Source: Lingula anatina
Lineage: Eukaryota; Animalia; Brachiopoda
Assembly (NCBI GenBank): GCA_051362555.1
Contig: CM120648.1
Coordinates: 15,620,587 to 15,684,586, forward strand
Reading direction: 5' to 3'
DNA: 64,000 bases
The stretch's first letter is position 1. Each line of letters opens with the position of its first letter. Position numbers and translations under genes: made by a program. Under the pieces are notes generated by a model. That model had not been told where the DNA came from and made no database searches. It saw nothing but the letters and a program-made list of their open reading frames with translations. Shown here in pieces: positions 8,914-52,966 of this stretch.

Positions 8914-9353
8914 CTTTTCCGTGTTTATTTCCCTGATAATTTGTCCTTCTCCAGTACACGCTCCAAGACTTCGCAAGTAGGGCTCTAAAATGGGATACAT
9001 TTATTCTGCAAACATGTTTTGTTTTGATTTCTGATAAGTAAAATGCGGCATTCGCTACATATTGCAACTTTTCGCTTATTATAATTATTCATATTGATAG
9101 AGTGAGAGAAAGTTTCATCCACAATTAAAACCTATTTGTGCAAAATATATAAAAATTATAACATGTCGATTTCCATATTTAAACCCTTATTTTAAACGAG
9201 ATTGGTCATAATTATTTGCTGTTATCAACTGAAAAGCTGGTTATATACAGGGTATATACCAACAAGGATTGGAAACGGTTTACCTGCCCCTAAAGCGTAA
9301 TTGCTGTCACTCTTCTCCTGCGACATAACTTTAGTAACGTCAGTGGCGATCAC
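8914..9353 (-). CDS. Two exons of a Cys-rich TNFR-like ectodomain paralog (partial gene)
   Basis: Exons 9353-9284 (70 nt, VIATDVTKVMSQEKSDSNYALGA) and 8984-8914 (71 nt, EPYLRSLGACTGEGQIIREINTEK) have AG/GT sites and matching phases. They are homologous, including intron flanks, to exons 34515-34584 and 36311-36363. Confidence 0.65.
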
Positions 9354-11622
9354 CTGTGCATAAGAATTACAATACTTATAAAGATGATAGAGAAGCTTGC
9401 GTGCTAATAATGACAACCGGCACATGTGAATAATTACACAAGTTATTGAATAAAAAGCACATTGTTCATTTAATAAAATGGTATTTGCGGAAACACAGCC
9501 CATAGGTGTCTGACATACAAATTGTTAGTGTTAAATAAACAGCATATGCTAGGGATGTCATTTATATATACCTGTATGAACAGTAATTTTCGTATTATCC
9601 CAAAATCCAGATACTGGTTTCGATACTAAAACCGGCATTAATTAATTCCCATAGTGAATTTTAGTAAAGTAATAATTTGTCACTATTGTCCGAGTGTGTA
9701 CTAGCTTTATGTCATAAAACAGAGGAAGGGGAGAGAAAATATTAACTTTATAAATATGGTAGCACATATTTTAATGAATAATATATTTTATGAAGGCAAG
9801 AGAGATGCCAATTAGTTTCATAAGTCATTTACGCATTTTATATCCCATTATTTGTGTGAAGTTGGTAAAGAATTCAGCAGATTCGAACATAATTGAATAA
9901 AAGTTATCTTTAAAATAATCCAATCACACCAGTTAGCCAATTCTTTATTTCACCCTGAAAATTTAACAACCATTCCCCTTAATATTTATTGGCTATCATT
10001 CATATTTTCTTTCTAACACATTCATCTTATTAACATTCACTATCAGATTTAACATTAGATCTATCATATAAAAGTTAACTATAATCAAAAGGTATTCTAT
10101 CTCAATATGATATCATTTTAAGCTAACTAGAAGGTTTTCAAAGTTGTTATATAATAAAACTTACAAGTCACTAAGAAAGAAATGTTTAGTTCATGGTGTG
10201 AGAATTGAGAACATTGAGAAATGGATAACAGAGAGCTATCAACCTCGCCAAAATGATACTCTCTACAACTGATATCCTCCCGTATTTTCTCCCACCTTTT
10301 ATTGATTCATTTAGATAAAAAGTTTTACCATAAAAATAATTTTGTTGAAAATCATTTTTATCATTAACAAATGTCACAGATGACATAATCCAATGGAATG
10401 ATTACATTGTATTTTTTGTTACTGTTGTTGATTTATTCAAATAAAATGCAGTGTGATCATATGCAGTATTTAAGTGGGACCATGACATTAGAGGGTAGGC
10501 ATAGTTGTGCATTGACAAAATCGCACCTTATGCATCATACTGCCTCTGACACACAAGTCACTATCCCGCTAGTCAAGAGCTACTTGACACAGTGATTGTC
10601 GACAGCCAAGAGCAAGATCGATGCATTAGGATAAAACCTTAAACAATCACCATTTGTTCACTTGCAAAATTAAATGGGTTCTGTGGTTTTAGTAGGTACG
10701 ATTTCATATCCTTTATTAACTCTGACATATTTAAAGGACTTTGTCCCGACATATTTTTAGGAAAATGACACCTGGGGTACCTGTCATCATATGAGATTCA
10801 GACTCCTGTTCCTGCTTTGCATGTATGTATTTTGTTTAAAATAAATATTTAAATGTTCTCAATTGAGATTGTATAAGATGATGCACAGTGCAAGGTGTAA
10901 ATTTTGTTTAGATGTATCATCAGAATTACGGCTGGAAACAAAGAAAAATATTGTATGTGCTACTCTCTTCAGCTTCCAAAATGCCTCGAATAGAACAGAG
11001 TAGTAGTGTTATCCTCTAGCATTGTGTATTATAAAGATTTTCGCTTTACAAAAAAAGCCTCTGTTGTGAAAATACGAAACATACCGATATTTATCAATAA
11101 GGCCAAGAGGGAGCATACGAGCCACTCGACAGGAATATACTCAAGATGCACAACGATATTCTTCTGGCTCTTATCAATTGATAAGAAACAAGTGATACAT
11201 AAGTAGTAGATATCTAAGTACTAGATTTGTCTTCGGTCTTTGGAACAATTGATCAGATATTTTGTTCAACAGACTGAAAAATTGTTTCAGTAATGTATAG
11301 ATGGCATTGTATTGGCATGGTTTAAATCATACCTGACCGTTTTTACCTTCAATACTTCTATATCTAGCAGAACGTCTTTATCAGAGATTGACGTTATCCA
11401 TCCATTTTTACTTGTCCAGTGACGACGAGAATAAATTTATTATAATGGACGCGGGATGAAACATTGCTTGGTTTGGACGTCTTTCACTCAATACACCTGT
11501 TTATTGAAGTGTTAAGATAGTATCGCATCAATGGTCCCCTCTTGAAATTACATTGTAAAAATTTGAAATTGTAAAATTACAATGTAGACTTTTGACTAGT
11601 TGAAACATAGTTCAAACAAGTT

Positions 11623-11882
11623 TATGGAGCGCCATTCACGCAAAAAATGCAGACGTCAATTCAACAATCTATCGGCACTATTTAACAGCCAAAACCTACT
11701 TTAACTATCTAAACTTAATTCTACTAAATTAGTTGTGGTCATTTTAATCATTCATCAAAATCTAACAATCAATAATAACGATTCAAAAGTCAGTTACTGC
11801 AACTCAACAATCAGTCACCGCAACTCAACAATCAGTCACCACAACTCAACAATGTATCAATGTATTTTTGCGTGAATGGCGT
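11623..11882 (+). mobile_element. Short internally deleted copy of the IS3EU-like (TATGG) element
   Basis: TATGGAGCGCCATTCACGCAAAAAATGC... is nearly identical to 24387-24640. A partial inverted end TTTTTGCGTGAATGGCG is at 11865-11881. Confidence 0.7.
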
Positions 11883-12201
11883 GAAAGCATGGTGGTTAGT
11901 TTAAGAATAATGGTGTGTTTCTCCAAGACATTGTCACACAGCATGTGGGGAATAATATTTATTAGGCAAATAGTACTAAAGAACCTCGGGGCACGAATAG
12001 TAGTAAAGGGTCTATAAATGGCCGGTGGTGAATTAGGCTGTTCGGACTTCCTATATCGTAATATCGGCGGATAAGAACAGGCTTGTTTTGTTGTATCAAA
12101 GTCGTCAGTAGATGGCGTGTAAAATAATATCGTTTCTGATCAGAATTATAAACCCGTACATGGTGATTGGGGTTCACGTCTTAGATTTTTTTAAGCACGA
12201 T

Positions 12202-12264
12202 AAAATTTCCCAGCCTTGGTGACCTTGTGAAAATAATAATAAGAAAAGTGCCCTGGGAAATTCC
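12202..12264 (+). promoter_or_regulatory. Putative NF-kB (kappaB) sites upstream of the TNF start codon
   Basis: GGGAAATTCC at 12255-12264 matches GGGRNWYYCC. A kB-like GGGAAATTTT lies on the minus strand at 12202-12211. Both are about 75-140 bp before the ATG. Confidence 0.5.
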
Positions 12265-12339
12265 AAACAGATTTGTACTAGTTACTCTCCAAAAACAAAC
12301 TGCAACTAGGTTGATCAAAATTAGGCTGATCCATTCCTA

Positions 12340-12705
12340 ATGATGATGAATTTCCATGGTCGTCACTTCCAGCATCGCCCTGTACATGAATATGACGAGC
12401 CACCAATGATACCAATACCTTCTTCACTGTACTCGGACCAGTCCTCGACCACTGACGGTCTGTACGCCTCCATCAGACCTTCTAACATCACCACCGTAGG
12501 TCCGGCCTCCTTCGACGACTTCAGTGAGGATGATAATAGTCACCAAGAGCAACATACAACTCGTTTTTACGGGAAACTAAAGCGGCTGCGTTTTTACCTC
12601 ATGGCTATCTTCATTATGTGGTGTTTACAGATGATAGCCATAGTGGTGGTGGGGGCTGTGATTCACCTTCATCGACATGACGGCGACAAAGCGTCTACCG
12701 GGGAA
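12340..12705 (+). CDS. TNF ligand exon 1 (cytoplasmic tail + transmembrane helix)
   Basis: ORF 12340 ends at donor GAA|GTAAGT (12706). Contains the hydrophobic TM stretch. Confidence 0.88.
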
Positions 12706-15618
12706 GTAAGTGTTATATTAATAAAGGCGCTTGTACTTGAACAGGTTTACTAATATTGTTGTGTTCGTAAAATAATCATGTAGCACTTGTGTGTAATTGG
12801 CTGTTTACCTCAGAGCCACTTTAACGTAGAAGGTCAGGAACTGCGCAGCTGGAGATGATCAGCTGGATGTCACATAGTACAAGGCTAGAAATGGCCAGTT
12901 ACAGGTGGCTGGAAATGACCACCTTCAGGTGGCTGGAAATGACCGCTGGGGGGTGGGGCGCTCAAACAGTGCATGGCTGAAAATAGCCAACTGGAGACGT
13001 ACAGAGAGTGACCGCAGAGGAGTATAAATTTATAGGGGCGCACTCTCAGACTATGGGGAGAGTAGCAGTCTGTTAGTATAAGACCAGTGTTAGATCACTA
13101 TTAGCAGAGCACTGACATCCTCAGACTTAGATTTAGAGCACCTACTTACTAGTCATTGACTGTAACTTAGTTTCAATAAACAGGAAGTTAATTTGCGAGA
13201 AAAGGGAACGACATCTGCCTTGGTTTCTTCGAGTGAAAAACGTAAATATAGTATAAATACCCATGGCTAAATTCACGCTGGGTAATGCATAGCACTCATT
13301 CAGGGTTATTTGTGACCCGATTTAACAGACCCCTTACTTCCCCAGGCTATTTCTGTTAAGAAGAAAGAGGAAGTAATGCATTGCATACATTGATGACGCA
13401 TGTTTTCACATTCAAACACATTAAGTTCAGTTGTAATGTATTGCATTTAACTTTTGATTCAATGAATTTTAATTAATTTTTTTACAGCTTTTGGGGAATG
13501 TCGAGAAGCAAGATCTCACAGGTGGGAAAGAATTAAGCAAAATCATAATTTTCCATTGATCTTTATCATTGGAATTGGAAGTGAAAGGCCTTACACAAGT
13601 CGTGTCACAGGATTTGGGCTGAAGCGACAAAATTTGCTTTTGTTAAATCCACGAGTCAACACTTTTCTTGTGTAGACTTACTTAGCCTTTTCAATGTCAT
13701 TTCCATTGATTTATTTTTATTGGCTAGTTCCATAGTATGTAATGTTAGTCATTAATAGTCAGGAGGTGAGAAAATAAAGTCGTTGTTCTGTTCTTGTCAT
13801 GTGTGGTGTATATACAGCGGCATGTAACGTAAACGGAGCTAAGATCAATAGACACTGAAAGAGGTAGAGGCATAAATAGAGAGGAGGTGGGGCGGGAACT
13901 GAACAGGAGAGTAATGGATATGTGATATAAAATAACATGCTGGTCAGATTTGGAATTATTATAGATTTTGAAAGGAGTTCATGATATAAAATATCATTCA
14001 CAACATGGCTAAATCGCGGAAAGTATTTTGTTTCTAGTAAGTTAACCTTAAATTAAAATGAACCTGCGAAACTCATCTCCTGAATTATGGCAAAATAACG
14101 CATAAAACATTACACCTGTTTTATCTTTATTTGATTAAAAAAAAATGATTGTATGACACATAAAAGGAAACATTGTTAATACTCGTCTTATTAGATGTAA
14201 TGAGAAATATGTCGAGGTTGGCTACCAGCAGTCCCCTGCAAAAGAGAGGGATCAACAACATCACGCAGAAACTGGATTCCTTGGAAAGTATGTTTTATGG
14301 TAAATATGTTTTGTTAATCCAAGCAAACATTTTTCGTTATGGGAACAGGTAGGGTGTTATTTTCGTTTTAATGGGGGTTAAAGTCGGGGGTTTAACCTAA
14401 TAGTTAATCTTTTAAAGTAATGGATAGTTTTTCCAGTTGTGAACAAATAAATTATTTCTGTTTTACTAAACATGGTATTCGTGGAAAGCATGAGCAGACC
14501 CGAATTCCCGTGTCTGGGATCAACTTTATTCATTTATTTATTATTCATCATTTATATATTTAAGTTTCTGAATATATCTCTTATTCCAGGTCTCCAAGCT
14601 AATGTCACTGACTTGCTCCAATCATCCAGGAAAGGCTCCGTCCGGTTGACACTTGCCCATCTGATAGGCTGGAAAACCAATTACACTGCTCGTGAGTTCT
14701 CTAAACAGTTGTTTTTAATACGTTTAACAAGGCGGTGACTTTGTTTGTAAAATAATTACATATGCCTAATATTTAAATATTGTGAGTGTCCTTATGTTTT
14801 AATATTACAAATGATACACGGTCATTGACTTTGGTTGAATCACCTCTTGGAAACTATTAACCGGAAGCTTGGATAAGTGTCCGACGCCAAAACTGGCCTG
14901 TTGAACATTATTCTTCTTTCGAAGATCTACAATTATTTCTCTCAAACATTTTGATACACTGAGTGTTATCAAGTATAGATAATTATATAAGCTTATTGTG
15001 TATATTTCCAAATATTTTCTACTTGTATCTCTAAAATGTGTATATGCGGAATGTTTCACTGAAAATGTTCCATGTTGTATTAATAATCGTATAAAACAAT
15101 GTTTCGTCTATGTATCACTTTTCTCCTCTTTGCGCAAGTATGTTATAAAAATAAGTAAATTATTAACCATTTCCCACTGCATGTATGAAAAAACCGACAG
15201 CCATTGACATAATGTGAAACATTACTTACTTCTGTTTTATATTTTAGATTTTACTTGGCGAACCGGTCCCCACACAAATAGTTTTCTCACTGGAGACGTC
15301 CGATATGACGTCACCAAAGGGTGCTTAACTGTGGGGCGAGAGGGATACTTTCTCGTGTATAGTCAACTGTGTTTGAGAGGTCCAAAAAATGGAACGTTTG
15401 ACCATCAGATCCAGAGGTACAGTGGAGATGGTTGGAAAAGGGGGCTTTATAAGGCAAGGTATTATACCGGGTCAAGTCGGGTTGATTGCGACACTTTAAC
15501 AGGAATAATGCATCTTAGAGAAAATGACAGTATCAGAGTTGATCTTTCAAAAGACAATTATATCACTGGGAATAGTGCGTTCAATTCATTTGGTATGTAC
15601 ATGCTGTCATCACTGTAA
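12340..15618 (+). CDS. TNF superfamily ligand (type II membrane protein, 321 aa), 5 exons: 12340-12705, 13488-13521, 14195-14287, 14590-14691, 15248-15618
   Basis: All introns are GT-AG with consistent phases (0,1,1,1) and give a 966-nt open frame. TM segment FYLMAIFIMWCLQMIAIVVVGAVI follows basic KLKRLR. TNF homology domain hallmarks: LAHLIG, FTW, GCLTVGREGYFLVYSQL, TGIMHLRENDSIRV, NSFGMYML. Confidence 0.92.
12757..13245 (+). mobile_element. Probable solo LTR in TNF intron 1
   Basis: Starts TGTTGTGTTC. Short internal tandem repeats (GGTGGCTGGAAATGACC), TATA-like TATAAATTTA at about 13023 and AATAAA at about 13175. The 3' end is uncertain. Confidence 0.4.
15248..15618 (+). CDS. TNF ligand last exon (most of the TNF homology domain)
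   Basis: Acceptor TTTTAG at 15247. Encodes FTW...GYFLVYSQ...FGMYMLSSL-stop. Confidence 0.92.
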
Positions 15619-15840
15619 GTTTAACTATAGACACTAAAGTGACGATATATGACATTTCATACGACGTCATTCTTCCAAACAAATTTGTGATTACTGAGAG
15701 CAAAATAATTTTTTTTAAAGCATTAATATAATATACATCGGCCAAAGGAATAATAATAATAATATTTTATTAAATATTTTTTACTGTGCCACAACAGGCA
15801 TCATACATAGAATTGACTCTTATAGCTGTACACAATATCG

Positions 15841-15845
<5 letters not shown>

Positions 15846-15898
<53 letters not shown>
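15846..15898. repeat. (TA)n microsatellite downstream of the TNF stop codon
   Basis: Direct reading. Confidence 0.95.
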
Positions 15899-15902
<4 letters not shown>

Positions 15903-16644
15903 GCAACCTATCAAAAGCATATGTATATAATGCACTTCGTCTAAAGAAAGAAAACATATAACCATGTTTTTTTTTTTTTTGAAAATATGTTATTTTTGCT
16001 GATCCATGTATAGTAAATATACAGCAGACATGATACATATAGTTGAGTCTTACAGATGTACATTTTACCGTTTTGAAATTGTTTAACTTGAAGAACTATT
16101 TCGTTTATGTGTTCGTCGTTTTCTTTCTTCTGAATCTTAAAAGATTGTATAATAAACACCTTAAGTCATTTATTGATGAAAACTTAAAATATTAAGTAAA
16201 GAATATACAATTTTATTATTGAGAAGGGCAAATGAGTAGATTAAATGAAGAAGGTTAATGCAATGTAGTTAGTGCATTGTTCCAAAAAGCATATGTGCTT
16301 TTTACCGTGAGAAAATCATTTTGGCATGAAAACCAAAGCTGTAATGTATATTGAACGTGTAGGAGCTGCTGTATTTAATACTTATTTTTCTTCCAAAATG
16401 GGCGTTTCAGCACAGCAGCTTTTTTAGTGTTAAAATACCAAAAAAAAAGGAAAATAAAGCACCGTTATTGAACAATTTGTTTGATAACCATGTTTTTTTA
16501 AGACTCATATACATGTCTTGTTTACTTTTATGCTCTCACAATTGTGATATCATTGAATTTTTGTCACCCCTCTTGTTTCTTATAATCTACACTAAAGAAA
16601 AGCAGGTGACCTAACTTTTCAGTTTAAACAAGAAAAAAAATCAA

Positions 16645-17320
16645 CTTAAAGGAATGCGCAGCCCAGCTTTCAGATGTGTTCGCGGAAATATTCAACTGGT
16701 CAATTGAAATTTGCAGAGTGCCTGAAATATGGAAGACAGCAACCATCATACCTGTGCCAAAAAGTAAAACTGTAGAGAATTTAAATGATCTCCGTCCTGT
16801 TGCTTTGACACCGTTGCCTATGAAGATATTCCAAAAAAAAATTATTTTGTCTTTTATTAAAACTTTAGTGCCAAATAGCTTTGATCCACTCCAATTTGCC
16901 TACCGCAGTAACAGAAGTGTAGATGATGCTCTTTCTATGTGTTTACACAAAGTTTTGGAACATCTCGATTGTAAAAATGTCTATGTTAGAATTTGTTGAC
17001 TATAGCTCAGCATTTAATACTATTGTACCAAGCAAATTGCATTTCAAACTTTTGGATGATCTTAATTTTCCACCAGCACTCTGCGATTGGATTTTAGATT
17101 TTCTTTCAAACAGAAAACAGTCAGTAAAAGTCGGTAGTAAGCGATTTTTAAATAGCTTTTATCCTTCGGCAGAAACTGTTTTTAACTCTAACATGTAATT
17201 TTTATTTTCATTCTTTATATTTCAATGGCTCTACCACAGGGCAAAAGATTCCCGATTTTATACATTTGTATTTTATTGGCTTAATAAATTATTATTATTA
17301 TTGTTATTATTATTATTATT
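16645..17320 (+). mobile_element. 5'-truncated, internally deleted Rex1/Babar-type LINE (RT fragment)
   Basis: LRPVALTPLPMK, DPLQFAYRSNRSVDDA, (F)VDYSSAFNTI and WILDFLSNRKQSV jump directly to the C-terminal RFLNSFYPSA. Followed by AATAAA and an (ATT)n tail at 17290-17320. One frameshift. Confidence 0.85.
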
Positions 17321-17509
17321 ACGACCGCAGCCATATGGTTTAATGTGCCATCTCTTTATTTTTTATTCGAATTTTCTACCTTGCATGAGTTTGTCAGTCT
17401 ACTAATCCGGAATTCGGAATTCAATTGTGACTTGGGGTGTGGTCGACCCTGGGGGTGGTCTATTCTAATTTTTACATCGTGTTTTATGCTAGGCGCATGA
17501 AACGTGGCT

Positions 17510-18371
17510 GATTCTAGGACAATTCCCCCCCGGACAATCCCCCCCCGGACTATTCCCCCCGGACAATTCCCCCCGGACAATTCCCCCCCAGGACAATTCC
17601 CCCCCCCCCCTGACGATTCCCCCCCCCAAGAAATATGTATTTATATACAAATATAAAGTAGAAAGTGTAAAGTTTAAAACATTTCATCTATTTTATTAAC
17701 ATTTTTAGTGTGATAATATAACTTCATCATGAAACAAATTATTTTATAACAAATTCCCTTTTCATTGAGAACAAGTACAGGAAGATTTATTAAGTATCTA
17801 ATCGAAGTATAACCACCTATCCTTCAGGTAAAAGTGGGGTAAACAGATGAACAGGTAAACAGATATTTTATAAATATTTTAGTGTGGTGGGTGGTGGTCA
17901 AGCAATTAAAAGTGACAAATAGTCACAGGGATACCTGGATAAGCGAGAAAATCTGTTTACCCCACCCCTCCCTAGAGATGAGCCTTGATTCAAGACTTAC
18001 TGAATCAAGGGGGGGGGAGAAATAAAGCAATTAAAAGTAACAGTTAATTCATCAAAGGGCTACCTGGATGAGTGAGATCATCTGTTTACCCCTCCTTTAC
18101 CTAGAGATATATATTCTTTGATCAGATTTTTAATAAAATGTTCTGTACTTCTATCTCGAAAATTTCATGTACTTATACTCCATGAAAATAAATTGTTTAA
18201 TAAAATTAATATTATCTATCCTTGATTTGCATCATCACACTAAGAAATATTCAGAAAAAGGATGAAAAGAACTTTGAACTTTGTATTCTTTATATTTGTA
18301 TATAAATATATATATTCTTCGGGGGGGAATAGTCCGGGGGGAATTGTCCGGGGGGGAATTGTCCTGATACC
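17510..18371. mobile_element. MULE-like MITE with GGACAATTCCCCCCC arrays (copy 1)
   Basis: 9-bp TSD AACGTGGCT (17501-17509, 18372-18380). Inverted 15-bp repeat arrays at both ends. Confidence 0.85.
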
Positions 18372-18411
18372 AACGTGGCTACATACTATTTTAAATGTGG
18401 AAGGGCACTTC

Positions 18412-18467
<56 letters not shown>

Positions 18468-18904
18468 CCTGGGGGCGGTTGAGTCTAATTGACATTGTTA
18501 TTCCTGCTATATCTATCCTGAGACCAATAAAGCTGGGAACGTAAGGCTATGGGGATTGAAAAATCTGTCTTTGGGGATGTGTATGGGTCCTTCTGGGTTT
18601 TTGTGACATTGGGTGTGGCCGTCCCTGGGGAGGTTGATTTTAAATTTTACATCGTTATTCGTGCTTCTACCCCTACGCCATTACAGTTGGGAACATGAAA
18701 CCTTCCGGGCTGATAAGCTTACCATTGAGGATATGCATAGGTTTCCGGGAATGTTAGTATGATATTTCAGGTGTGGCTATCCCGGGGGGTGGTTGATTCT
18801 GTTTTTCACAACTTTATTTCTGCCATCTATACCCTTAAATTTTAAGGAACATGGAACGGAGATTGATGAACCTGTCATTTTAATGAATGTGCATGGGTCC
18901 TTGA

Positions 18905-19248
18905 GAAATGTAGAGAACAGCAGAAGCACATACAGAACTAAATGGACTTCCAGCCATATGCATAAATATAGGTCAGGGAATCCAATTAAAAACTAATTCA
19001 AGGCCCCACACACTCGATCAGGAATCCTAGCGTTTAACTGCTGATGTGTCTTAACACAAAACAAAAATGTTTATTTCCCAAGAGCAGTAATTAACATGTG
19101 TGTTTTATGTTAAAGAACAATGGGACTTGGACCCTAGGATTCCTGAGAGTATGGGGTCTTGAATGGGTTTTAATTAACTTGACCTATATTCAAGAATACG
19201 ACTGAAGGTCTGTTATTTAGTACTGTCTGCTGCTTTCTGTACATTTCC
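18905..19248. repeat. Degenerate palindromic (foldback) element
   Basis: Arms pair: GAAATGTAGAGAA/TTCTGTACATTTC, AATATAGGTCA/TGACCTATATT, TCAGGAATCCTAG/CTAGGATTCCTGA. Confidence 0.55.
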
Positions 19249-22139
19249 CCTTCCTTCCTAACTCGAAGACCGCCACCAGATTCACACATACAGGGTAGGA
19301 TGTAGTACTAGCTGGGTCGGTCCAACTCTGCAAGGAATCTTAATTGCAATCTATGGAATCAGCTTCATTGCCTGACAAACCACTAATCACTCCACCCCCT
19401 AGGGACGGCCACTCCCCAAGTCACACTAATGTAGCCCACCCATGCACCAAAGACTCATGTTCCTAATTCGAATGGTCTAGGGGGAGATGAAATAAATTAC
19501 GGTAATATATATGTGTACCATCCCCAGGGACAGCCACACCCCAGGTCACAAAAAATAAATAAATAAATAAATAAATAAAATAAAATAAATAAAAAAAACC
19601 TGCCTATGCACACCCTGACATTTTAGTTTCCTCAACCTAAAGACCTATGGGTATATAGCAGAAAATACAATTTAAAGATAATAATCAACCACCCCTAGGT
19701 CACCAAAGTCACCAAAAATCCAAAGGACACGTGCACATCCCTAATGGCAAGTTTAAATATCCCCAACGTCTCATGTTCCTCACTTTAATGGATAGAGGAT
19801 ACCAGTAACAACGATATAAAAAATATAAATATACCCCCCCCCCAAAGGACTGCAAAGTCCCACTACTAAAGGTCTACAGGTAGATAGCAGAAATTACGAT
19901 GTAAAAATTACAATCAACCACAATTACAATCAATCACAATTCTGAATAAATATCAATCTACAAGCCTGTTGATGTCGCAGATCAGCTACGTTAATTAGGC
20001 TGCTAAACAACAAGTAGGCCTACCCCCCCCCCCCCCCCCCCTCCGAACGCCTTATTAACAGGTTTCCAAATGCAGACTGTGCCGCAGATAATACTTTCGG
20101 GTCAAATGAGAGCCAGCCAAGGGCACATTTCGGGGACACCATTGATTACACCATGATGGACATTCACAGGTGTAGGACCAGAACAGAGCATCTCGGAAAC
20201 CAAGGGACAGACGTAAATCATTACACTTGCGCGTCTTACCTCATGGAAAAATTAGTCTTTTCAGAGTGGGATGCGACTTGATCAAGATAATTGTAGAGCA
20301 CAATTATATACACGACCTTCTCTGCTTCTTTTTATTATCTATTTATTTATCTTTAATAATTGATTATTATTTGTTTATTTATCCATCTTATAATCCAGTA
20401 ACCTACGCGTAAATTATGTTTTCATAGCCTGGTTTACCTGATCCAGTAGTTTTATGTATCAAGCGTATCTGGGAGGGGAGGACCCAGGGGGTCTGGACCC
20501 CCTATTTCTTCCACGCTGATCATAATCTCCCATAATGTACTGATTTTTAGAAATACTGGATCCTCACCTACATACGCCTGTGTATTTTAAAATTACTCAA
20601 AACATGCATCCAATACCACTAAAGAAACCCTATTCAGTCATACAAGTGAATTAAAACGTACAGTTTACCTATTTTGGATAATATTTACAGTACAAAAACA
20701 TTATATTTCAAAAACGTTCTCTCTCATAACGTTGGGCCAACAACAGGTACTTTTTCACCATTATCCCATGAAGTCGCAGGCAATATCTTATGTGGAGATG
20801 AAGTCGCAATTTATCCTATGAAGTCGATTTGACAGTAAAATCAGAGCATTTATCCCATGAAGTGGTAATATACCATGAAGTATCTTAACATACGTCTAAG
20901 AATAAGTTTTCCATAACAAACAATTTAATCTCTGACACCACGCTACAAAAAGAACACAATATTTTGTCGGTACACGTGTACAGAAAATATGAATCTGTGT
21001 GCCTGACCCGAAGGTTGTTTCTGTGGGAACGGGGTCTGTTGTGGCAGTGTAGGTGACCTGTATTATTCTCCCTCCACGCCTTTGTGCTTTCTTTATGCGC
21101 ACAAAAGAGACCGTAAGGAGGAAGGAAAATCAATATGTTTGTTTGCTCTGGCTTTATTCATATGAAGAATATAAACTGAGGCATACTCAGACAGCGTCTG
21201 CAGTCGACCTCAGCCAAACACAAAACTAGGACGACCGATTTTTTTAATATAGCTCAAATGCAACTCTTCAAAATGAAATTATGGGAAGAGCTCATCTCAA
21301 AATTATTTTCTTCAGATTACACCTTAACAGACTGTTTCATTATGTTTTTCGAGCATATGGAACTGACGGAAAAAATACAGCTAATCAACAAGTACACAAG
21401 TTACATTTATCATTCATCATCATCTCTTGCAGACAACTGTTTGTAGAGAGCCTCGACATATTTCCTATCACACCTGGGAGAAAAGTATAAATAATAATGA
21501 GATATTTAGTTTGGATCGAGCCTGTATATAACATATTTAAATAGTCGAAGCCGTCATGCTTTAAAAAAGAGTAAATATTATATAAGATAAACACCAATGG
21601 ATCTTTACCGTATAGATTATACTGCCCGTCTGTCAAGTCAATCAGTGAACGATGCGATTGAAAAAAAAGTAAATTCGTTTCTCTGTAGAAGAATCAACTA
21701 TGGAAAAGGACCTGTTGCATTTTTCCCGCTGAATGTAATTTATTAGGATTCTTTATTTCTACATAGATGCACGGATCAATGTTACTTACTTATCAAGTCA
21801 AACACACAAACAAAATAACAGGTGCAAACCACCTGCAAGTAGATATGAAAAATTACGCAACCTTTAGACGCACCGTTCAACACATTTTTACTGGTTTTAT
21901 CCATCTCTTTCCCCACTGATCTCTTCTTGTGCAAAGAATAATAACAAGAACCGTTTCCATTAGCCAACGAGCTGTGCCTTTAACGTCGCTTTTCAGAGCG
22001 CTTTATTGTTCACTTCCCAAAGCCCGAAGAAAGCACACCGCTAAGAAAAACGCCCTAGGTCAATAAAAGAATAACATTTCCTCGGTTAAAACACAAAGCA
22101 AAGCTCTTGCTGCATTATTTTCTTAATGAATAAGTTAAT

Positions 22140-22643
22140 TTGCCGGTCACAATGTCTTTTTAGACATGCAAAGCAGACTGGGTTGTGGGATTGTAGGGCC
22201 CATTTCCGGATTCTCGAACACTCGACTGTACCAGTTAGTTTAAAAGAACGTCACCGGTTAGACAGTAAGTACAGTTATGATAACCGTAAAATTCATGGGT
22301 GTATATTAATTGTCTAAAAGCAGATTTCACGCATCGCAACGGTTGTTCAGGGTATACCTTTACTTAATTGAGGCCTCTTTCTTCGGTAAAATAAGATGCA
22401 TTTTGGGTTAAATATAAATGTACTTCCGTGTACTTTGCAGAGATTAATGGCTTGTTGAAGTCCATTTTGAATAAGTTAAATGTGTGATGATTGTGACATG
22501 GTCATTATGTATACGTGTTTTTCTCTCCAATGTGTTTCAGATCTGTTTAACGTCCCTGAACTATTAAAGTTGGAATCGGAAGGACTCGTAACTTTTACAT
22601 TTCTACAATGTTCGGTGCTTTGATCTTTTTAGCAGCGCTAAGT
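22140..22643 (+). pseudogene. Dead 5' duplicate (promoter, non-coding exon, intron, signal-peptide exon) of the Cys-rich TNFR-like gene
   Basis: Collinear similarity to 29425-29469 plus 33067-33516. Exon 22541-22637 encodes MFGALIFLAA but the donor is CTAAGT instead of GTAAGT. No downstream exons found. Confidence 0.65.
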
Positions 22644-23039
22644 TTTATATATGTATTTGTATGACGGTATTGGAATTAGAATTTTGATTAGCTGATCTAT
22701 ATTTCTTGACCCTTCCAAATGGCACAGTTTGTCCACCAAAACGCCAAAATATGTTGGGCATATCAGTGGGCTCGAACCCCACCACAAGGGGGCAGGGTCG
22801 GCTTCGAATCTGAGCTCTCCGGGCTCTTGTAGCTCCGGAAAAAAATACTTTTTGCATAAAGATCCGGTATAGTTTAGAATAGTGATCGAATTGACAACAA
22901 CTTATTGCCAGTCATCATCATTAAGTCTGCGTCGTCAAGTAAATTTGCTTTCTCTCCACTTCTTAAGTCCTTTAAATGATGCTTAGGCGGGGATGGTCAT
23001 AGTTCTCTATCATTTACCAGCTTCACCACAGATAAACTT

Positions 23040-27414: not shown

Positions 27415-27418
27415 CTAT

Positions 27419-37213: not shown

Positions 37214-37250
<37 letters not shown>

Positions 37251-40200: not shown

Positions 40201-43200
40201 TTGGAATACACTTCGACAGTTTTTGACATGACAAAAACATTCGAGCCGGCCACAAGAATGGGTAAAAATATTTGGAATGCACTCAGAATTTTAGAATGTT
40301 TTTAGAATGCTCTTCGAATATCCTGGAATGCACAAAGAATTGTATTTCAGACGCCATTCTTAATCATTCCGCCTCTAGTGTGACGGGGATTTTATATCCC
40401 GCCAGAATGTTTCGAATGTGCCTCGTATAAGCAGAAATATTAATGTTGCCAGCAATCGAACTACACTAGTGATCCGTTCAAAGCATATTCTACATATTCT
40501 TACTGCCTTCTTAGAGCATTATAAATATTCCTAGTTTTCCAACTACATTCGAACTGCTTTTGACAGATAATACAGTCGAAAGTGCACTCATCATTCAAGC
40601 GCATTCTGAGTATTCCAGCGGTACTCTTACAATAATTAAGGTCAATTTGAAATTTTTCCCCGAATGTGGAACGAATTTTAAAAATTCTTCGTTCAGGCTC
40701 ATTCTTCTTTATTCCTGCTGATTCCGAATAAGTGTGACGGGGGTATTAGTAGGATACAAGAACAAGAAAAAAATTGGCTTTTAAGGAAAAGAAGCACTAT
40801 ATTTGTAATGGAATTCCTAAATTTTCCAGCTTAAGATATTCTTCAAAAACTCATAATATGTCAAGTCAAATTTTAAATAATTTATCCTAAAATCTTGGTT
40901 CTTCTATTATTCTCGCACTTCCTTTATTTTGCATAATGGACTAAGCTACCGAGCTATCTGAGATGCGGCATTTGAATCTTTTATACTTTTTGGGTACATT
41001 CTTTCACTTGTCAAAATTGTTTACGATTTTTAAATAAAAAGGTCAACATATAACCTCCTGCATAAATGATATCATGATACATAAACCCAGATCCCTGTCT
41101 TAGGATCAATTTTTGTATAAATGATAAAATCCCATTGATAAAATCTTACAGAATAGGAGCAATTTTCAAAATGCACATACAAAGGCACAGGGATGCCTTT
41201 CGCATGCCACGCATCAAGGATAGGTGAAGGTCGTTCAGAAAAATACTCACTGGCACTAGTTTAAATCGGTCAGACTCAGCATTGTTCTCAGGTTAGTTTT
41301 CATTACATTTGAATAAAATTTTCAACTTTCAGCAGTATCAAGGTCGAGAAATTTCACTGTTTGACAGAGGTATCGAGAAACGTCATTTTTTTCGTTTTTT
41401 TTTTTCGTTGACTGTTGAATTCGTGAGTAGTGTGACTATTCTAGAGATAACACATTCTTGAAACTTTGAAATTTTAAACCTAAGATGATATTTTAACTCA
41501 TATCTGAAAATGATAAAAATTTAGGCTGGCAACTTTTTTCCTCGCAGTATAGTCCCACCCCCTACAAGATGCATTTTTTGGTTCATTTTTTTCCCGAAGT
41601 CCAAAAATAGTGTCCGTATTTCATTAATAATAAATGGCCATTTGGGTAATCCTTTGAAACCACTGGTAAGAGCGCATGCTTATCTACGTGGTTTTAAAAA
41701 ATGGCTGCACATTGAGACCGTTTTTGATTTTAATAGAGCTTTATTTGTAAGGTATGTTTTTCAGGTCGGCCATCGCAAATGCTGCGAAACGGCGCTACTT
41801 CGTGACGCGGACTCACTGAAAAGTTTCAGATAACCGCCATGACATAACGTTTTTCAGCCAGTTGCCATCTGACTGAAAAAGGGGCTATGGTTATCTCTTT
41901 CATATTTCTCCCTCCATCATTATCCATAATTTTCCATATTACCGACCGGATGGCTTTGTGGTTAGAGTGTACGCCTCCGGAGCGGGAGGACGTGAGTTCA
42001 GACCCGTCCGGGGACCTACCAGTTCTTTGTAAACGGTACCTGCTGTCTCCCCGCTTGGCACTCACCACTGAGGAGTTGAAGCAGGGGCCTAGTCTGGCAG
42101 AGGAGAAATGTTATGTTTGCTAGCTTTGAGCGCCTAATGCGGCCGGGCTGTATCCTCAGCAGGGAGGCGATTACTTAAAACAGATTTTGATTCAAATGAT
42201 AATAATAAAAAAAACAAATGAATACATAAAGTTTATTTATATGTATAACGTCAACCTTGGGGTTGCAGTATTTCAATGAAGATTATTATACAGATTAATT
42301 TTGACAAACTTCTACATCAGTTGTGTCAAACAAAGTAAATTCTTCAGAATACACTAGGATGTTTTCATGTTTTTTATTACAGAGAATTGCGAGTTTATTG
42401 CTGAGTTCAATAAAGAAGAACATTGGTAGGTACTTATGTATGTTAAGTGAGTTAAGTAAATGGTAATTTGTAGAGCTTTATAGAAAATAAAAGATAGAGA
42501 TACACTGTTTTCAATATCGTGCAGTTTTCTGAGACAATGTGGTAAAATGAAATATTAATTGGCGATTTGCTAACTGCTTCAAATTGCGATTTGTATTTAA
42601 AACTCTTGTCCACTGTTGGTCTAAAAATGATGCATTGAAACAAGTGTATTTTTAATATATATGCTCCTTAAATTGCTCTCTTTTTCAATGCCCCTGCTTA
42701 ACTATATTTGAACACCACAATTAGTTTTCGTGAGTGAAATGTAATTTTCCAAATTCTTTTTAATTGAAGTCAGTCTGGATCCAAAAAAGATAAAAATAAG
42801 ATAGAATCACGACCCATGAATGTGTCTTAACCAAATATATTACATACCGGTACACAAGTTCATTTCACTACTTACTTTAGTCAAAACTCAACACTGCCCG
42901 CTCGACCATGATGAAGTATCCTTCTGTACTAATGCTGGATGTCTCTTGACGGCACAACACAATGTCTCCCATTTTAGAAGAGAAAATAATGACAAAATAT
43001 TATAGGCCTACATCGTAAAATATTGTCATAGTTAAGACTGCATTTAGGTGTTGCGTTGTTCTGATATTACTGAAACGATTCACTACTTCCATTTATGTTA
43101 TTAGTCTTAGCTGTGGTATGGCATATGTAAAGCTTGAAGAGGATGAACACTTTTGTCATGTCAGTCTTAGGGCTAGGATTTCTATCGACCGTTACGGGTC

Positions 43201-46200
43201 GAAAATAACAAAGTTTGTTGTATATGTATGCTATGGAAACCAGGTTACTAAAGTTTTCAAAAAAAAAAAAGGAAGATTATTTTAAGTGTTTAAAAATAGA
43301 ACGGATAAGAGCTGCGTTTGATAGCTGGCAGGTATAGCAAGGGGTATAGTTTTAGCATCAATCAGTACATGATCCCATCCCTGTGAATCCGGCAAAATGG
43401 GACGTTTTTACAAGCTTAACTAAAACCAGCTCCATTCATGCTTGGAAAAAGGAAAAAAAAAGATGTCTAAGATTTATGTATTTGAAAGATGTGTGAGAGG
43501 TCTTGTCCATGGATTGGTTAATTATAATTATTGTTTAGATAGACACGTTCATTTGGCACCCACGCCCGTTTATCCCTTCAATTTTCTCCCAAACTACAAA
43601 TATTTTTTGACAACTGACATGCCTTAGCAATACCTTAGTGCAGTGGGATAGTGGCAGTAGTTTGATTTTGGCTATTACTGTTAAAATTATATTTTGAAGT
43701 TATTTTCTAGCCTTCGGCAATTTTCGTAAAACTTGAGCATATAAGAAAAGTATTGTTATTAACAGTACGTAAGGTAGCAGGATTTGGTGGCCCAGTGGTC
43801 CAGTTATTTATGTAATGAGTGTCAGCAAATGTGTTTGTAATTTAACAGAAATATGTTTATGTTTCTGTGCAACACCAGGAAGCACCATAACAACAAGGTG
43901 AATATATATTCAAAGTAGTTGCATTTATTGATTTCATTTGAAATGTTGGACGTTCTTCCCAAACAGGTTGTGCAAATTTAACTTAAAAGTGTTTAGTAAG
44001 CCAGATATACATATTCATTCACTTACATATCTTGTTTTTAAATCTTGAAATTATACAACTATTTATTTTTATTTCAGCATACCTATATCGGACAATGCCC
44101 AAGGATCATGGTAAATAAAACTTTTATTAATATACTAACCCTTCTTTTTAGGAGTTTGTTGATATCAGTGGTAGTTACATTGAGCACGCGATAATAAGGC
44201 AAAATAGAGTGCCTAAATAGTTCACCAAATGTAATGGAAGATTTTAAGGCTTAAGGCGTGTCATCATTAGTGAACATAAATATGCAGAATCAATTTAACA
44301 TTATGTCATGAATCATTCTGTGAAGAACAACTCAGTTAGCTGGTGCACTTGGGCAGGATGCTACTGCATCTACAATTTCTTCCTTTTTGAAATTTATAAA
44401 ACATGTGTTTATATTCCAGTGCTCCACCTGCAAAATGCACCATAACAACAAGGTAAATATGTATTCATAGTAGTTGCATGTATTGATTTCATTTGAAAGG
44501 TTAGGCGTCCTTAAGGGTAGTTTTTGCATATATAAGTATGTGAGCCCAACTCTGTGGAAATCTGTGAAAAGGGAATCGTTTTACAATCCTTATTTAAAAC
44601 GCGTTTATGTAAGCTTAATACTTTCTTCCTATATGGAAAATGAAAAAACGATCTATGTATTTAAAAGGGGTAAAACAGGTCTTGTCCATGGGTTGGTTAA
44701 GTGTCTCTCGTGTTTTTATTATATATAGATGTGTTCACTTGGCACCCACGCCTGTTTATTCTTAAACTTTCTTCCTTTTTGTAATTTATAAAACCTGTAT
44801 TTATATTCCAGTGCTCCACCTGCAAAAAGCAACATAACAACAAGGTAAATATATATTCATATTAGTTTATTGATTTCATTTGAAAGGTAAGGCGTCCTTC
44901 CCATAAAAGTTTTAAAATTAAGTGTTTAGCCAGATGTACGTATTCATTCACAAACATATTTTTAAGAATTTATGCAAAAAGTGTTTTTATTTCAGCAAGC
45001 ATGTATCAGACAACACCCCAGGAGTATTGTAAATAAAACTTTTATTAATATACTCCCCTTTTTTAAGTTTGTTGATATAGATGGTAGTTACATTAAACAT
45101 GCGATAATAAGGCAAAATAGACTGCATATAAATAGTTCCCCAAATGTTATGCATCGTTTGGAAAAAATAAGGCTTAGCATGCCATCATCTGTGAACATAA
45201 ATATGCAGAATCTAACTGAAATTTTATCTTGGGTCATACAGCGAAGAACATATTACATATTCAGTTAATTGGTACACTTGAGCAGGATACTATTTTAGCT
45301 TCCGCACTTATCAAGCACTGTTTGGTCACAGCCATACGTAAGTTCTGTCAGGGAGGATCGGCACTTTTTCTGATTATATCTGAGGGCAAGATGAAATCGC
45401 AGTTGCCTCAAATGATGTTTATTGTATAAAAACTGAGCCACATTCGTTCACTTATTTTGTAACCTTCTTTCAGTGATTTCCATGTTTCGAACGCTGTGTG
45501 GGGTAAGTTCACCATCAAGACAAAATATTTGAAGCTCTTTAATGAAAACGTGTACGTAATGATAAATAAATTAGAACAGAATGCAATTGAAACTTCCATC
45601 TGTTATTTCAAACCTGAACTACATTCATAATATCGAAATGAATAAAGTAAAACAGTGCAATTCCTAAATAGTTTGTGCAATTGTTGCTTTTTTTCTTTTT
45701 ACCAGCTATCCTTGTGTTAGAAATTATTATTTGTATTGGTGTGGGGGTGATTATATACAAATGTAAGTAGACATTATTATCCTAACCAACGTTAATACAA
45801 CACTGTTTGATCCAACATATCTTAATTAATTTAATATTCCTTTGTGACTAAACTATGATTCACCACTGAAGATTTATAATCCGTTTTAAAACACTTAACT
45901 GCTGTTACTTTTTCTTATAAGTTCAAAGTGTAAGTTCATATTTTATTCATTGTAAAATATGCATCCACTTTTAGTGAGTATGCTTAACCTTATATGCCAT
46001 CATCACCACAATTGATATTATTGCTGTTTATATTTCTATTACAATGTAGACCCAAAAAAGATATTATTTTTCATCGCCGCGCGCTTCCCTTGGACCTTGC
46101 GCACCACACTCTTTTCTTTTACAATCTTTTTGTCGGAGATGGTGGGTGGGTCCCAAAGCAGTGTCAGTGCAGTGCGGCACTGGCGGTATGAACCGATGGA

Positions 46201-52200: not shown

Positions 52201-52966
52201 ATGTGCAGAGGACATTAACATTTTGGCAGGTCTTAGGGGGAACTGGCTTGCGTACGGCTGCACCTTTAGGGGTAACAAGGAGAGGTCAGATGACCCCTGG
52301 CAAGATATTAATTGGGACTTGTGAAATAGGACACTTCTGAACTCTTGCCTTCATTTTAGCCCTCAGTACCACCCCAGAGCTTTGCCTAGAAACACGAAGC
52401 ACAGGCAGCCCTTTCGTCAGTACTTCCCAGCAAGAGTCAGCTTCTTAGTTTCATTCAGGGGGGGGGGGGGGGGGGGCTTACTCACTGACTACTTGACAGT
52501 TTAGCAACCAGGAACCTCTTATGATTGGCATATTACCCAAGAAAACCAAATACTGTAGTTCCCCATAGCATAACTATGAGAAATAACAAAGGACGCCGTT
52601 TTATTTACCCAGAAAATGATATTTTTATGGACATTTTAAATATTCGATTTGCTGCAGCTCAAGCTTTTGCCTCACAAAAAGACGGGTACGGGTCCATATT
52701 CTTTTAATGTTTCGATTCACATATTGTTTTGAAAAGTGCATTATGTTATTTTAAATGGTATTGTATTTTGATATACATTTTCTTTTCATGTCTTTAAATA
52801 GACTGCCACTTGAAATGTCTGGCATCAGTGCGCTGTGTGAGTACCATTCACATTTCCCTGATACATTGTGTATAAAGTAATTATAATAACTTTTTCAGAT
52901 CGGGAAGTAGATTTACACCCAACACTCAGGGACACCCAAGTATGAAGATACAGACACACGGCACTG
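33481..52966 (+). CDS. Putative secreted/membrane Cys-rich TNFR-like protein (partial, possibly disrupted). Exons 33481-33510, 34515-34584, 36311-36363, 37076-(37255 / 38239-38270), micro-exons 43868-45028, 52899-52966
   Basis: Phase-consistent GT-AG chain gives MVGHLIYFAVVISTAVTEA (signal peptide) TSQAKCENAFSCWKGEKRGVCTGIGQTINATKDNETTCWCEEYNGYSPDRPKECWEQGTPSACVCTQCPNGSRP..., then S/T/P-rich stalk exons. No TM exon was found in the window. Confidence 0.55.
34606..36061. mobile_element. Foldback-type MITE (copy 2 of the 1043-2577 family), intronic
   Basis: CCGGTGTAACATGAAAAT ... ATTTTCATGGTACACCGG, with long similarity to 1043-2577. Confidence 0.85.
37076..37255 (+). CDS. Cys-rich exon of the TNFR-like gene (interrupted by a MITE)
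   Basis: Acceptor TTTCTCAG at 37075. Encodes DNETTCWCEEYNGY...CVCTQCPNG. Confidence 0.6.
37256..38235. mobile_element. PIF/Harbinger-like MITE
   Basis: CAG|GGCCCGGTTTCATCAAGGCTGGATA ... TATCCAGCCTTGATGAAACCGGATC|CAG, with a 3-bp TSD. Confidence 0.8.
39233..39533. mobile_element. MITE with CCC termini and TA TSD
   Basis: TA|CCCAACTACCAGACTCGGCACCGA ... TCGGTGCCGAGTCTGGTAGTTGGG|TA, about 65-bp TIR. Confidence 0.85.
39637..40745. mobile_element. Harbinger-like MITE (39637-40389) plus an adjacent related right-end fragment
   Basis: TCCTCGTCACACTAGAGGCGGAATG ... CATTCCGCCTCTAGTGTGACGGGGA with about 200-bp arms. A second end GTGTGACGGGGGT is at about 40732-40744. GCATTC/GAATGC-rich. Confidence 0.7.
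41944..42180 (+). mobile_element. tRNA-derived SINE
   Basis: A box TGGCTTTGTGG and B-box-like GAGTTCAGACCC at tRNA spacing, followed by a GC-rich body and an A-rich tail. Confidence 0.65.
43390..45300 (+). repeat. Tandemly duplicated intron/micro-exon modules
   Basis: 43400-43580 resembles 44565-44770, and 43860-44370 resembles 44790-45300. A third partial unit is at 44380-44510. Confidence 0.8.
47157..48074. mobile_element. MULE-like MITE with GGACAATTCCCC arrays (copy 3)
   Basis: Same ends as 17510-18371. TSD TTGTATTT (47149-47156, 48075-48082). Confidence 0.85.
48548..48829. mobile_element. MITE with perfect about 65-bp TIRs
   Basis: TGGTAAATGTGAGGTATCC...CCCTGCCTCA and its exact reverse complement. 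Flanks TTGATTT / CTGATTT. Confidence 0.8.
49279..50496 (+). mobile_element. Tc1/mariner element with degenerate, internally deleted transposase
   Basis: TA|CACACACTGGACAAAAGAAGTGTCACCCC ... GGGGTGACACTTCTTTTGTCCAGTGTGTG|TA. Motifs GRPRKTTGREDRRL, FSDECRF, MVWDCIS and IIRSRGNATKY across broken frames. Confidence 0.92.
51680..52440 (+). pseudogene. DIRS/Ngaro-type retrotransposon ORF1 (gag-like) fragment
   Basis: PLHAQVDTKLKDKIWGNQFIELALVL, FTTVFYSFTSVY, then broken-frame LLKY...GNWLAY..TFR...PWQDINWDL. This pattern is recalled from invertebrate DIRS/Ngaro ORF1. Confidence 0.65.

What the first reader, a model, noticed from the sequence alone, without database searches (positions are those of the whole stretch)
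8914..52966. TNF ligand embedded head-to-head in a cluster of Cys-rich TNFR-like ectodomain genes
Seen: the intact TNF gene (+, 12340) points away from a minus-strand paralog (exons 9353-9284, 8984-8914) of a signal-peptide/Cys-rich gene whose other copies start at about 22540 and about 33425. The same divergent geometry recurs: inverted TNF exon-1 copy (-, 27676) against the Cys-rich gene (+, 33481). The Cys pattern C-x5-C...CTGxGQ...TCxCxxxxGY...C...CxCxxCPxG resembles TNFR cysteine-rich repeats (recalled, not searched). Inference: a physically linked, possibly co-regulated ligand and receptor/decoy module that has been duplicated as a unit. Vertebrate TNF ligands and receptors generally sit in separate clusters.
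Basis: partly seen in the sequence, partly recalled or inferred. Interest (0 to 1): 0.8.

Follow-up and report, generated by a model that had tools for sequence, protein, structure and literature searches.

The report
Brachiopod TNF–receptor pair, duplicated then inverted
In a lamp shell (brachiopod), an intact TNF immune-signal gene lies among one predicted-intact and one broken copy of a membrane-protein gene that likely belongs to the TNF-receptor family; signal and receptor genes were likely copied together long ago and likely scrambled by a recent inversion, and whether the two proteins bind is untested.

Summary
The coordinates are right; the pairing is not. The window is Lingula-like (TNF 89% identical to L. 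anatina XP_013395686.1). It holds one intact TNF gene and one predicted-intact signal peptide/Cys-rich/stalk/TM gene (C, from 33481) on the same strand, 21 kb apart. The '8914-9353' and '22540' copies are complementary halves of one second paralog: exons 2-3 on minus, exon 1 on plus. The inverted TNF 'copy' is a 696-bp stub, 99.3% identical, cut at codon 86. Flipping 12598-27418 rejoins the halves and puts TNF head-to-head with C, so the stub is best read as a staggered-break inversion scar. This supports an older (about 72% identity) duplication of a divergent TNF/receptor-like pair. Gene C has two uncharacterised Lingula relatives. TNFR kinship rests on sub-threshold leads (Atlas TNFR_c6 clusters; OPG at E 0.14), with no Pfam hit. 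Splicing of C was not shown. The two relatives lie on other scaffolds than the two TNFs found. Probably a real linked module; cognate binding about 30%.

The parts
12340..15618 (+). Intact TNF-superfamily ligand gene, 325 aa type II membrane protein; coding exons 12340-12705, 13488-13521, 14195-14299, 14590-14691, 15248-15618
   Evidence: Pfam TNF E 1.3e-9; 89% identical over full length to L. anatina XP_013395686.1
12255..12264 (+). NF-kB-like site GGGAAATTCC 76 nt before the TNF ATG (also in the stub at 27752-27761); consensus recalled, function untested
   Evidence: 4 such sites in the window, this duplicated pair among them
11903..12597 (+). Left copy of the 696-bp inverted duplication (TNF upstream region plus first 86 codons)
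27419..28111 (-). Right copy: TNF promoter/exon-1 stub (ATG 27676), cut before the TM helix; 1 substitution and 2 indels against the left copy
12598..27418 (.). Inferred inverted segment (recent); flipping it makes B exon 1 collinear with A exons 2-3 and puts TNF head-to-head with gene C
   Evidence: coordinate check; inference
11886..11894 (+). 9-mer AGCATGGTG next to the left junction; its only other copy is at 27408-27416 (-), next to the right junction
   Evidence: partly overlaps a MITE terminus, so weak evidence
11624..11881 (+). MITE-like element abutting the left junction; relatives at 24388-24730 (+) and 27255-27413 (-, abutting the right junction)
   Evidence: reads from other loci pile up on it
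8597..9494 (-). Paralog piece A: exons 2 (9353-9284) and 3 (8984-8914) with intron flanks; no exon 1 nearby, no exon 4 found in the window
22113..22661 (+). Paralog piece B: upstream block (22113-22179), promoter/5'UTR block and coding exon 1 (22608-22637) with a dead donor; no downstream exons on +
21405..21495 (-). Decayed TNF paralog remnant (exon-3-like, acceptor at the homologous place), head-to-head with B; no TNF-domain exon found
   Evidence: score 61 against tile mean 21.7, sd 3.9, next locus 35; blastn E 1e-6; missed by the protein HMM
29398..29464 (+). Upstream block homologous to 22113-22179 (75%), left of the element inserted before gene C
   Evidence: E 4e-9; score 66 against shuffles 27.7, sd 4.0
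29470..33069 (.). 3.6-kb DNA-transposon-like insertion (matching terminal inverted repeats, 2-bp GT flanking repeat) between the TNF stub and gene C
33481..45762 (+). Gene C, predicted type I membrane protein: coding exons 33481-33510, 34515-34584, 36311-36363, 37076-37214, 42383-42425 (signal peptide and Cys-rich ectodomain), 44078-44110, 44420-44452, 44812-44844, 44996-45028, 45474-45502 (Ser/Thr/Pro stalk), 45706-45762 (TM); open frame, all GT-AG
   Evidence: 32% over 211 columns to XP_013396088.1, E 4e-31; 37% over 120 columns to XP_013413435.1
52802..52966 (+). Candidate cytoplasmic-tail exons of gene C (52802-52836, 52899 onward); the reading is uncertain, and the in-phase route I tried gives a tail of about 15 aa
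   Evidence: not shown by RNA

Best explanation
An intact TNF ligand gene and a predicted type I membrane protein that is likely a divergent, death-domain-less TNF-receptor relative (gene C) were likely neighbours head-to-head, were likely duplicated together in inverted orientation, and were then likely separated by a recent 15-kb inversion. Inferred history: (1) a divergent TNF/receptor-like pair; (2) an old inverted duplication giving [A/B <- -> TNF2] [TNF <- -> C]; (3) decay of TNF2 and loss of the B donor; (4) transposon insertions; (5) a staggered-break inversion of 12598-27418 that split B from A, duplicated 696 bp of the TNF 5' end and left a stub facing C. Inferred function: the TNF is a trimeric type II ligand, likely NF-kB-inducible. 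Gene C would present about two CRD-like modules on a mucin-like stalk with a short tail, so it would act as a ligand-binding surface receptor or sink, not a death receptor. That C binds this particular TNF is inferred from linkage only (about 0.3).
For: TNF identity. Gene C: an open frame across 11 GT-AG exons, confirmed by two independent L. anatina proteins with the same signal peptide, Cys pattern, stalk and TM; 9 Cys columns are shared by C and both relatives. TNFR leads for the family: in the Atlas, the 10 best named feature hits share the TNFR_c6 family or clan (best 0.83), and 7 of 10 structure rows are clusters named or annotated as TNFR or RANK-CRD, TM 0.41-0.53, with unnamed mollusc clusters on top. 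TNFRSF11B is rank 1 (E 0.15) and rank 2 (E 0.14) in PDB sequence searches. Inversion: complementary halves on opposite strands; a 99.3% inverted duplicate exactly at both needed breakpoints; one flip restores both collinearities; size within the 46 bp-1.9 kb range of inversion-associated duplications in PMC1885836 (passages). Old co-duplication: a TNF exon-3 remnant 640 bp from the B upstream block on the opposite strand, with divergence (70-75%) like that of A/B against C (66-87%); the B upstream block is homologous to the block between the TNF stub and C.
Against: No Pfam TNFR_c6 match for exon 4 or either relative at E up to 10. The Atlas scores are under its 0.9 bar, and it notes that a third of shuffled proteins also get ten concordant family hits. 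The OPG match is not significant; a clip-domain protease ranked above it. Gene C itself lacks two or three of the N-terminal Cys of its relatives. RNA reads showed no exon joint of C among the 15 joints displayed (130 not shown) and depth of at most 0.16 over the stalk/TM bins in 4 of 4 runs. The relatives' contigs (202,469 and 736,928 bp) differ from those of the two TNFs found (453,976 and 112,472 bp), and no close orthologue of C was found. The TNF2 remnant is one exon, seen at nucleotide level but not by a protein HMM. The inversion was not checked with DNA reads. A segmental duplication carries neighbours along whether or not they work together.
Confidence: 0.55

Rival explanations
1. Same anatomy and history, but the linkage is incidental: gene C is a TNFR-like or other fast-evolving surface protein that happened to sit next to a TNF, was co-duplicated passively, and binds another ligand.
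For: The relatives of C are on scaffolds other than those of the two TNFs found. A 3.6-kb insertion and the inversion have separated the promoters without visible damage to either reading frame. TNF genes are often tandem-duplicated in lophotrochozoans (PMC8905726 passages), which raises the chance of adjacency.
Against: Without the two insertions the ATGs are about 1.65 kb apart and divergent. The non-coding block between ligand and receptor genes is conserved in both modules. Only 2 TNFs were retrieved, so other TNFs may lie beside the relatives.
Confidence: 0.3
2. The inverted 696-bp copy and the split of A from B are an assembly mis-join of two haplotypes; in the animal the TNF is still head-to-head with C and the A/B gene is collinear.
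For: 99.3% identity is compatible with two alleles. Both junctions lie beside a repeat family. No DNA run could be laid.
Against: The junctions are sharp, fall in unique TNF sequence, and carry short non-matching filler plus a shared 9-mer, which fits repair of staggered breaks better than a join inside a repeat.
Confidence: 0.08
3. No inversion: A, B and the TNF stub are three independent partial duplications or transposon captures, and gene C is a non-TNFR Cys-rich membrane protein.
For: The region is rich in transposons; the stub abuts an element end. No significant TNFR profile hit.
Against: It needs three events that by chance give exactly complementary halves on opposite strands around an inverted repeat. 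The Atlas and PDB sequence leads point to TNFR-type domains.
Confidence: 0.07

Closest known systems
TNF superfamily ligands (Pfam PF00229); closest records L. anatina XP_013395686.1 (LOC106162807) and XP_013417426.1 (LOC106178681), both named 'uncharacterized'
   Same: Type II TM helix, stalk, C-terminal TNF domain; 89% identical to the first over 325 aa and 47% to the second over 175 columns.
   Different: A different allele, species or close paralog; flanked by a 5' stub and a decayed paralog remnant.
TNF receptor superfamily without death domain (CRD alignment closest to TNFRSF11B/OPG, PDB 4e4d and 3urf)
   Same: Single-pass type I layout with a Cys-rich ectodomain; the family profile aligns Cys to Cys with OPG CRDs; Atlas neighbours are TNFR_c6 clusters.
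   Different: No significant PF00020 hit; extra Cys; Cys lost from the first module in C and A; micro-exon stalk; short tails with no death domain (P0003 95 aa, P0004 37 aa).
L. anatina uncharacterized proteins XP_013396088.1 (LOC106163126) and XP_013413435.1 (LOC106175827)
   Same: Same family as gene C.
   Different: Only 32-37% identical, so paralogs, not the orthologue; on other scaffolds than the two TNFs found.
Canonical lophotrochozoan TNFRs (PITA, p75NTR-like) and Drosophila Wengen/Grindelwald (bioRxiv 10.1101/2021.12.26.474206; part 1 of 4 and passages read)
   Same: Lingula has a described PITA; divergent short TNFRs exist in protostomes.
   Different: Gene C has no death domain. It was not compared with PITA or Grindelwald directly; none came up in my searches.
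Staggered-break inversions with inverted duplications (Ranz et al. 2007, PMC1885836; passages read)
   Same: Inverted duplicate of unique gene sequence at both breakpoints, within the reported size range.
   Different: Inferred here from one sequence without an outgroup; MITE ends abut both junctions, so a transposon role is possible.

Membership tests
TNF superfamily ligand | C-terminal TNF homology domain | tested here: met
   PF00229 at 38.5 bits against cut-off 23
TNF superfamily ligand | Type II membrane topology (internal TM, no signal peptide) | tested here: met
   Hydrophobic 19-mer at residue 90 of the 89%-identical P0001, hydrophilic N-terminus; same segment in window exon 1
TNF superfamily ligand | Homotrimer that binds a receptor | not testable with these tools
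   Needs biochemistry
TNF receptor superfamily (gene C family) | Signal peptide and single TM helix | tested here: met
   Hydropathy and exon model of C; same in both relatives. Hydropathy only; no signal-peptide predictor was run
TNF receptor superfamily (gene C family) | One or more CRDs detectable as TNFR_c6 (PF00020) | tested here: not met
   No hit at E up to 10 for exon 4, exon 2, P0003 or P0004; the spliced ectodomain of C itself was not scanned
TNF receptor superfamily (gene C family) | CRD fold and disulfide ladder | tested here: inconclusive
   Atlas model of P0003 (pLDDT 0.57) has TNFR-type neighbours at TM 0.41-0.53, under its bar; OPG at E 0.14-0.15 by sequence
TNF receptor superfamily (gene C family) | Binds a TNF-family ligand | not testable with these tools
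   Needs a binding assay
Death receptors | Cytoplasmic death domain (about 80 aa) | tested here: not met
   No Death hit in P0003 or P0004; tail of C uncertain but short in the model tried
TRAF-recruiting TNFRs | TRAF-binding motif in the tail | tested here: inconclusive
   Recalled consensus: one TRAF6-like match in P0003, none in P0004; no control; tail of C not tested
Bidirectional-promoter gene pair | Divergent start sites within about 1 kb and co-transcription | tested here: not met
   As assembled, intact TNF and C are co-directional and 21 kb apart; stub to C is 5.8 kb ATG to ATG (1.65 kb without two insertions); no start sites seen in RNA
Staggered-break inversion | Inverted duplication of unique sequence at both breakpoints | tested here: met
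Staggered-break inversion | Un-inverted order in an outgroup or second haplotype | not testable with these tools
   No genome held; no DNA run listed

The most novel reading that the evidence does not exclude
Lingulids carry a family of highly divergent TNF receptors, invisible to Pfam, each born in a tight head-to-head cassette with its own cognate TNF ligand under a shared NF-kB-responsive promoter. The cassette is the unit of birth-and-death evolution (one whole copy decayed here, ligand and receptor together), and a young, possibly polymorphic inversion uncouples ligand from receptor. Gene order would then predict ligand-receptor pairs in an invertebrate.
Probability: 0.2. Interest if true: 0.78.

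Novelty: new variant of a known kind. Interest (0 to 1): 0.47.

Why it matters
Invertebrate TNF ligands far outnumber recognisable receptors in annotation (77 TNF against 1 TNFR by domain annotation in a clam, PMC8905726 passage), and almost none are paired. A Pfam-invisible receptor-like family beside a TNF gives a concrete candidate pair to test and suggests that such receptors are under-counted. The inversion is a natural test of whether the head-to-head layout matters for co-expression. If binding fails, what remains is an uncharacterised Lingula membrane-protein family and an ordinary breakpoint scar.

Tried and rejected
Whole genome: none held. Sequencing runs: no RNA holder listed; 9 same-species raw-read runs were offered and no DNA run; 7 of the 9 were laid. 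(8500-15800; X1, X4, X7, X3; 6-25% of each run read): zero depth over 8500-10939 in 4 of 4 runs, so nothing on piece A. TNF had a few reads and no joint reached the listing threshold. The X7 depth in the exon-3 bin (0.43) equals one read over the 105-nt exon running into exon 4 (inference from one read). The X7 exon-5 reads with a loose end at 15320 resemble the P0002-type paralog and do not count for this gene. (33300-53100; X7, X8, X9, X5; likeness 85) was swamped by repeat and poly-G reads and is uninformative on splicing of C; B and the TNF2 remnant were never covered by a lay. Word-index search with exon 4 found no candidate; Atlas search with exon 4 alone gave no usable hit; PDB search with exon 4 gave only chance hits; P0001 had no PDB sequence hit at E 0.01. 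The third hit (P0005, HTH repeat protein) was dropped as unrelated. Complex prediction of P0001 TNF domain x3 with the P0003 ectodomain (a paralog stand-in): no answer, scores 0.29 and 0.03 against a mark of 0.34, controls not folded, alignments not used; neither support nor evidence against. pN/pS of B/A against C on 33 codons (0.31 and 0.28) is too small a sample to read. A possible TNF2 exon at 21926-21791 is not above shuffles (26 against 26.4) and also weakly resembles a P0002 stalk segment (E 0.18); not counted. An exon-4-like hexapeptide at 256-273 was treated as chance. Rejected: three Cys-rich genes; TNF facing a promoter of piece A; the 696-bp stub as part of the old duplication. Literature searches found no paper on these accessions or on head-to-head TNF/TNFR genes. 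The library lacks most subscription journals, and a 2018 survey of Lingula immune genes (recalled, not seen) and unseen bioRxiv supplements may list these genes. One search gave nothing that I used.
Full report
Organism and ligand. The gene at 12340-15618 (+) has five GT-AG coding exons and gives 325 aa without a stop. Its last exon matches Pfam TNF above the curated cut-off. The only two database relatives found are Lingula anatina proteins, one 89% identical over the full length, so the window is from a Lingula-like brachiopod. My first model ended exon 3 at 14287; the relative supports 14299. An NF-kB-like 10-mer lies at 12255 (consensus recalled, untested).

Gene C. Eleven exons from 33481 to 45762 join in frame with GT-AG borders into a signal peptide, a Cys-rich ectodomain, a Ser/Thr/Pro stalk made of 29-33-nt exons, and a TM helix. 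The exons were picked by eye, but two L. anatina proteins found with exon 4 alone (2 of 3 hits; named) align along the whole model (E 4e-31 and 2e-23). Nine Cys columns are shared by all three. An alignment search returned only these two among 1704 candidates. The cytoplasmic tail is uncertain. RNA did not settle splicing.

Is it a TNF receptor? Pfam does not recognise the family. Three weak leads agree. The ESM Atlas returns TNFR_c6 clusters as the best named neighbours of the P0003 ectodomain by features (0.83, under its 0.9 bar) and TNFR- or RANK-type clusters in 7 of 10 structure rows, below unnamed mollusc clusters (the two searches count as one source). Family profiles place osteoprotegerin first or second in the PDB at E 0.14-0.15, with Cys aligned to Cys. 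The layout fits the working definition of a TNFR (CRDs plus one TM) in bioRxiv 10.1101/2021.12.26.474206 (part 1 of 4 and passages read). I put CRD ancestry at about 0.7. Neither relative has a death domain.

What the other 'copies' are. Tile scans of both strands show one outlier copy of C exon 1 (22.4 kb, +), one each of exons 2 and 3 (8.6-9.6 kb, -), and none of exons 4, 5 or TM. Piece B has a CT donor; piece A has no exon 1 and keeps one Cys in two exons. A and B are complementary halves of one paralog, 66-87% identical to C by segment, now on opposite strands.

The TNF stub. 11903-12597 and 28111-27419 differ by one substitution and two small indels in 696 columns. The copy ends at codon 86, before the TM helix. 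Members of one MITE family abut both junctions, and a 9-mer found nowhere else in the window sits beside each (it overlaps a MITE end, so it is weak evidence). Flipping 12598-27418 on paper orders B exon 1, A exon 2 and A exon 3 on the minus strand and makes the TNF an intact minus-strand gene facing C. Inverted duplicates of unique sequence at both ends are the signature of staggered-break inversions; 17 of 29 Drosophila inversions show them, at 46 bp to 1.9 kb (PMC1885836, passages). Without DNA reads an assembly mis-join is not excluded. The stub is far younger than the A/B-C split, so it is not evidence for a duplicated module.

The evidence that is. A segment at 21495-21405 (-) matches TNF exon 3 with its acceptor (72% over 74 nt, E 1e-6; score 61 against a mean of 21.7, sd 3.9, over 633 tiles, next locus 35). 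It faces away from B, 640 bp from B's upstream block. That block (22113-22179) matches 29398-29464 (E 4e-9), which lies between the TNF stub and a 3.6-kb element inserted before C. So both receptor-like copies had a TNF on the opposite strand just upstream, with similar divergence in ligand and receptor parts. This pair lies inside the flipped segment, so its geometry does not depend on the inversion. Limits: it is one exon; no other TNF exon has a copy; a three-sequence protein HMM missed it.

How it likely works. Shown: the gene anatomy, the complementary halves, the stub, the remnant. Inferred: CRD fold (0.7), old co-duplication (0.75), recent biological inversion (0.7), C as receptor or sink for this TNF (0.3), shared promoter control (0.2). 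As assembled, the two intact genes are co-directional and 21 kb apart, and the stub is 5.8 kb from C (1.65 kb without two insertions), so any shared promoter would be ancestral, not current.

Results against. The two relatives of C are on contigs of 202,469 and 736,928 bp, the two TNFs on 453,976 and 112,472 bp; only TNFs sharing words with this one were retrieved, so other neighbours are possible. No orthologue of C was found. No read fell on piece A in 4 of 4 runs. Tandem TNF expansion is common in bivalves (PMC8905726, passages) and tunicates (PMC12843592, passages), so adjacency can arise by chance; an earlier AI note on a sea-squirt TNF/TNFR pair judged it accidental (unchecked).

Known or new. 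The ligand is an ordinary new TNFSF member and the scar is a known kind of rearrangement. The receptor-like family is uncharacterised in the records seen, and seven searches found no paper on these accessions or on head-to-head TNF/TNFR cassettes, within a library that lacks most subscription journals. PMC7674686 (passages) and PMC11463336 (passages) had nothing on ligand-receptor linkage in the passages shown. That vertebrate ligands and receptors sit in separate clusters is recalled, not tested. Verdict: new variant of a known kind, interest 0.47.

Noticed in passing
window 56051-61010 (+): Near-intact LINE-like retroelement: endonuclease and reverse transcriptase Pfam hits, ORF2 broken by one in-frame stop near 58953, coiled-coil ORF1-like frames upstream.
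   Followed up: partly
window 43834-45250 (+): The stalk of gene C grew by tandem duplication of 33-nt exons (44078/44996 and 44420/44812); a further copy near 43879 has lost its acceptor.
   Followed up: partly
window 9284-9353 and 34515-34584: Exon 2 of A and C (66% identical) is less alike than the flanking intron blocks (72-82%), a hint of diversifying selection on the ectodomain; 33 codons were too few to test.
   Followed up: partly
window 33101-33425 (+): The ATG exon of C and B starts after an acceptor-like site, with a donor-like site at 33146 in C, suggesting a non-coding first exon; the 3.6-kb element sits just upstream of it.
   Followed up: no
window 15320-15366: RNA reads of run X7 with a loose end that reads like the P0002-type TNF suggest a second expressed TNF paralog elsewhere in the genome.
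   Followed up: partly
window 45922-45929 (+): Candidate 8-nt micro-exon with a perfect donor after the TM exon; it would change the tail frame.
   Followed up: no
window 4139-6273: Two inverted arrays of a 20-bp unit (15-20 copies each), probably ends of one element.
   Followed up: no
window 16628-17100 (+), 7570-8100 (-), 49800-50320 (+): A reverse-transcriptase fragment and two stretches that look by eye like Tc1/mariner transposase remnants (no Pfam hit).
   Followed up: partly
ESM Atlas rows: Several unnamed mollusc clusters are the nearest neighbours of the P0003 ectodomain, so a wider Pfam-invisible lophotrochozoan family may exist.
   Followed up: no
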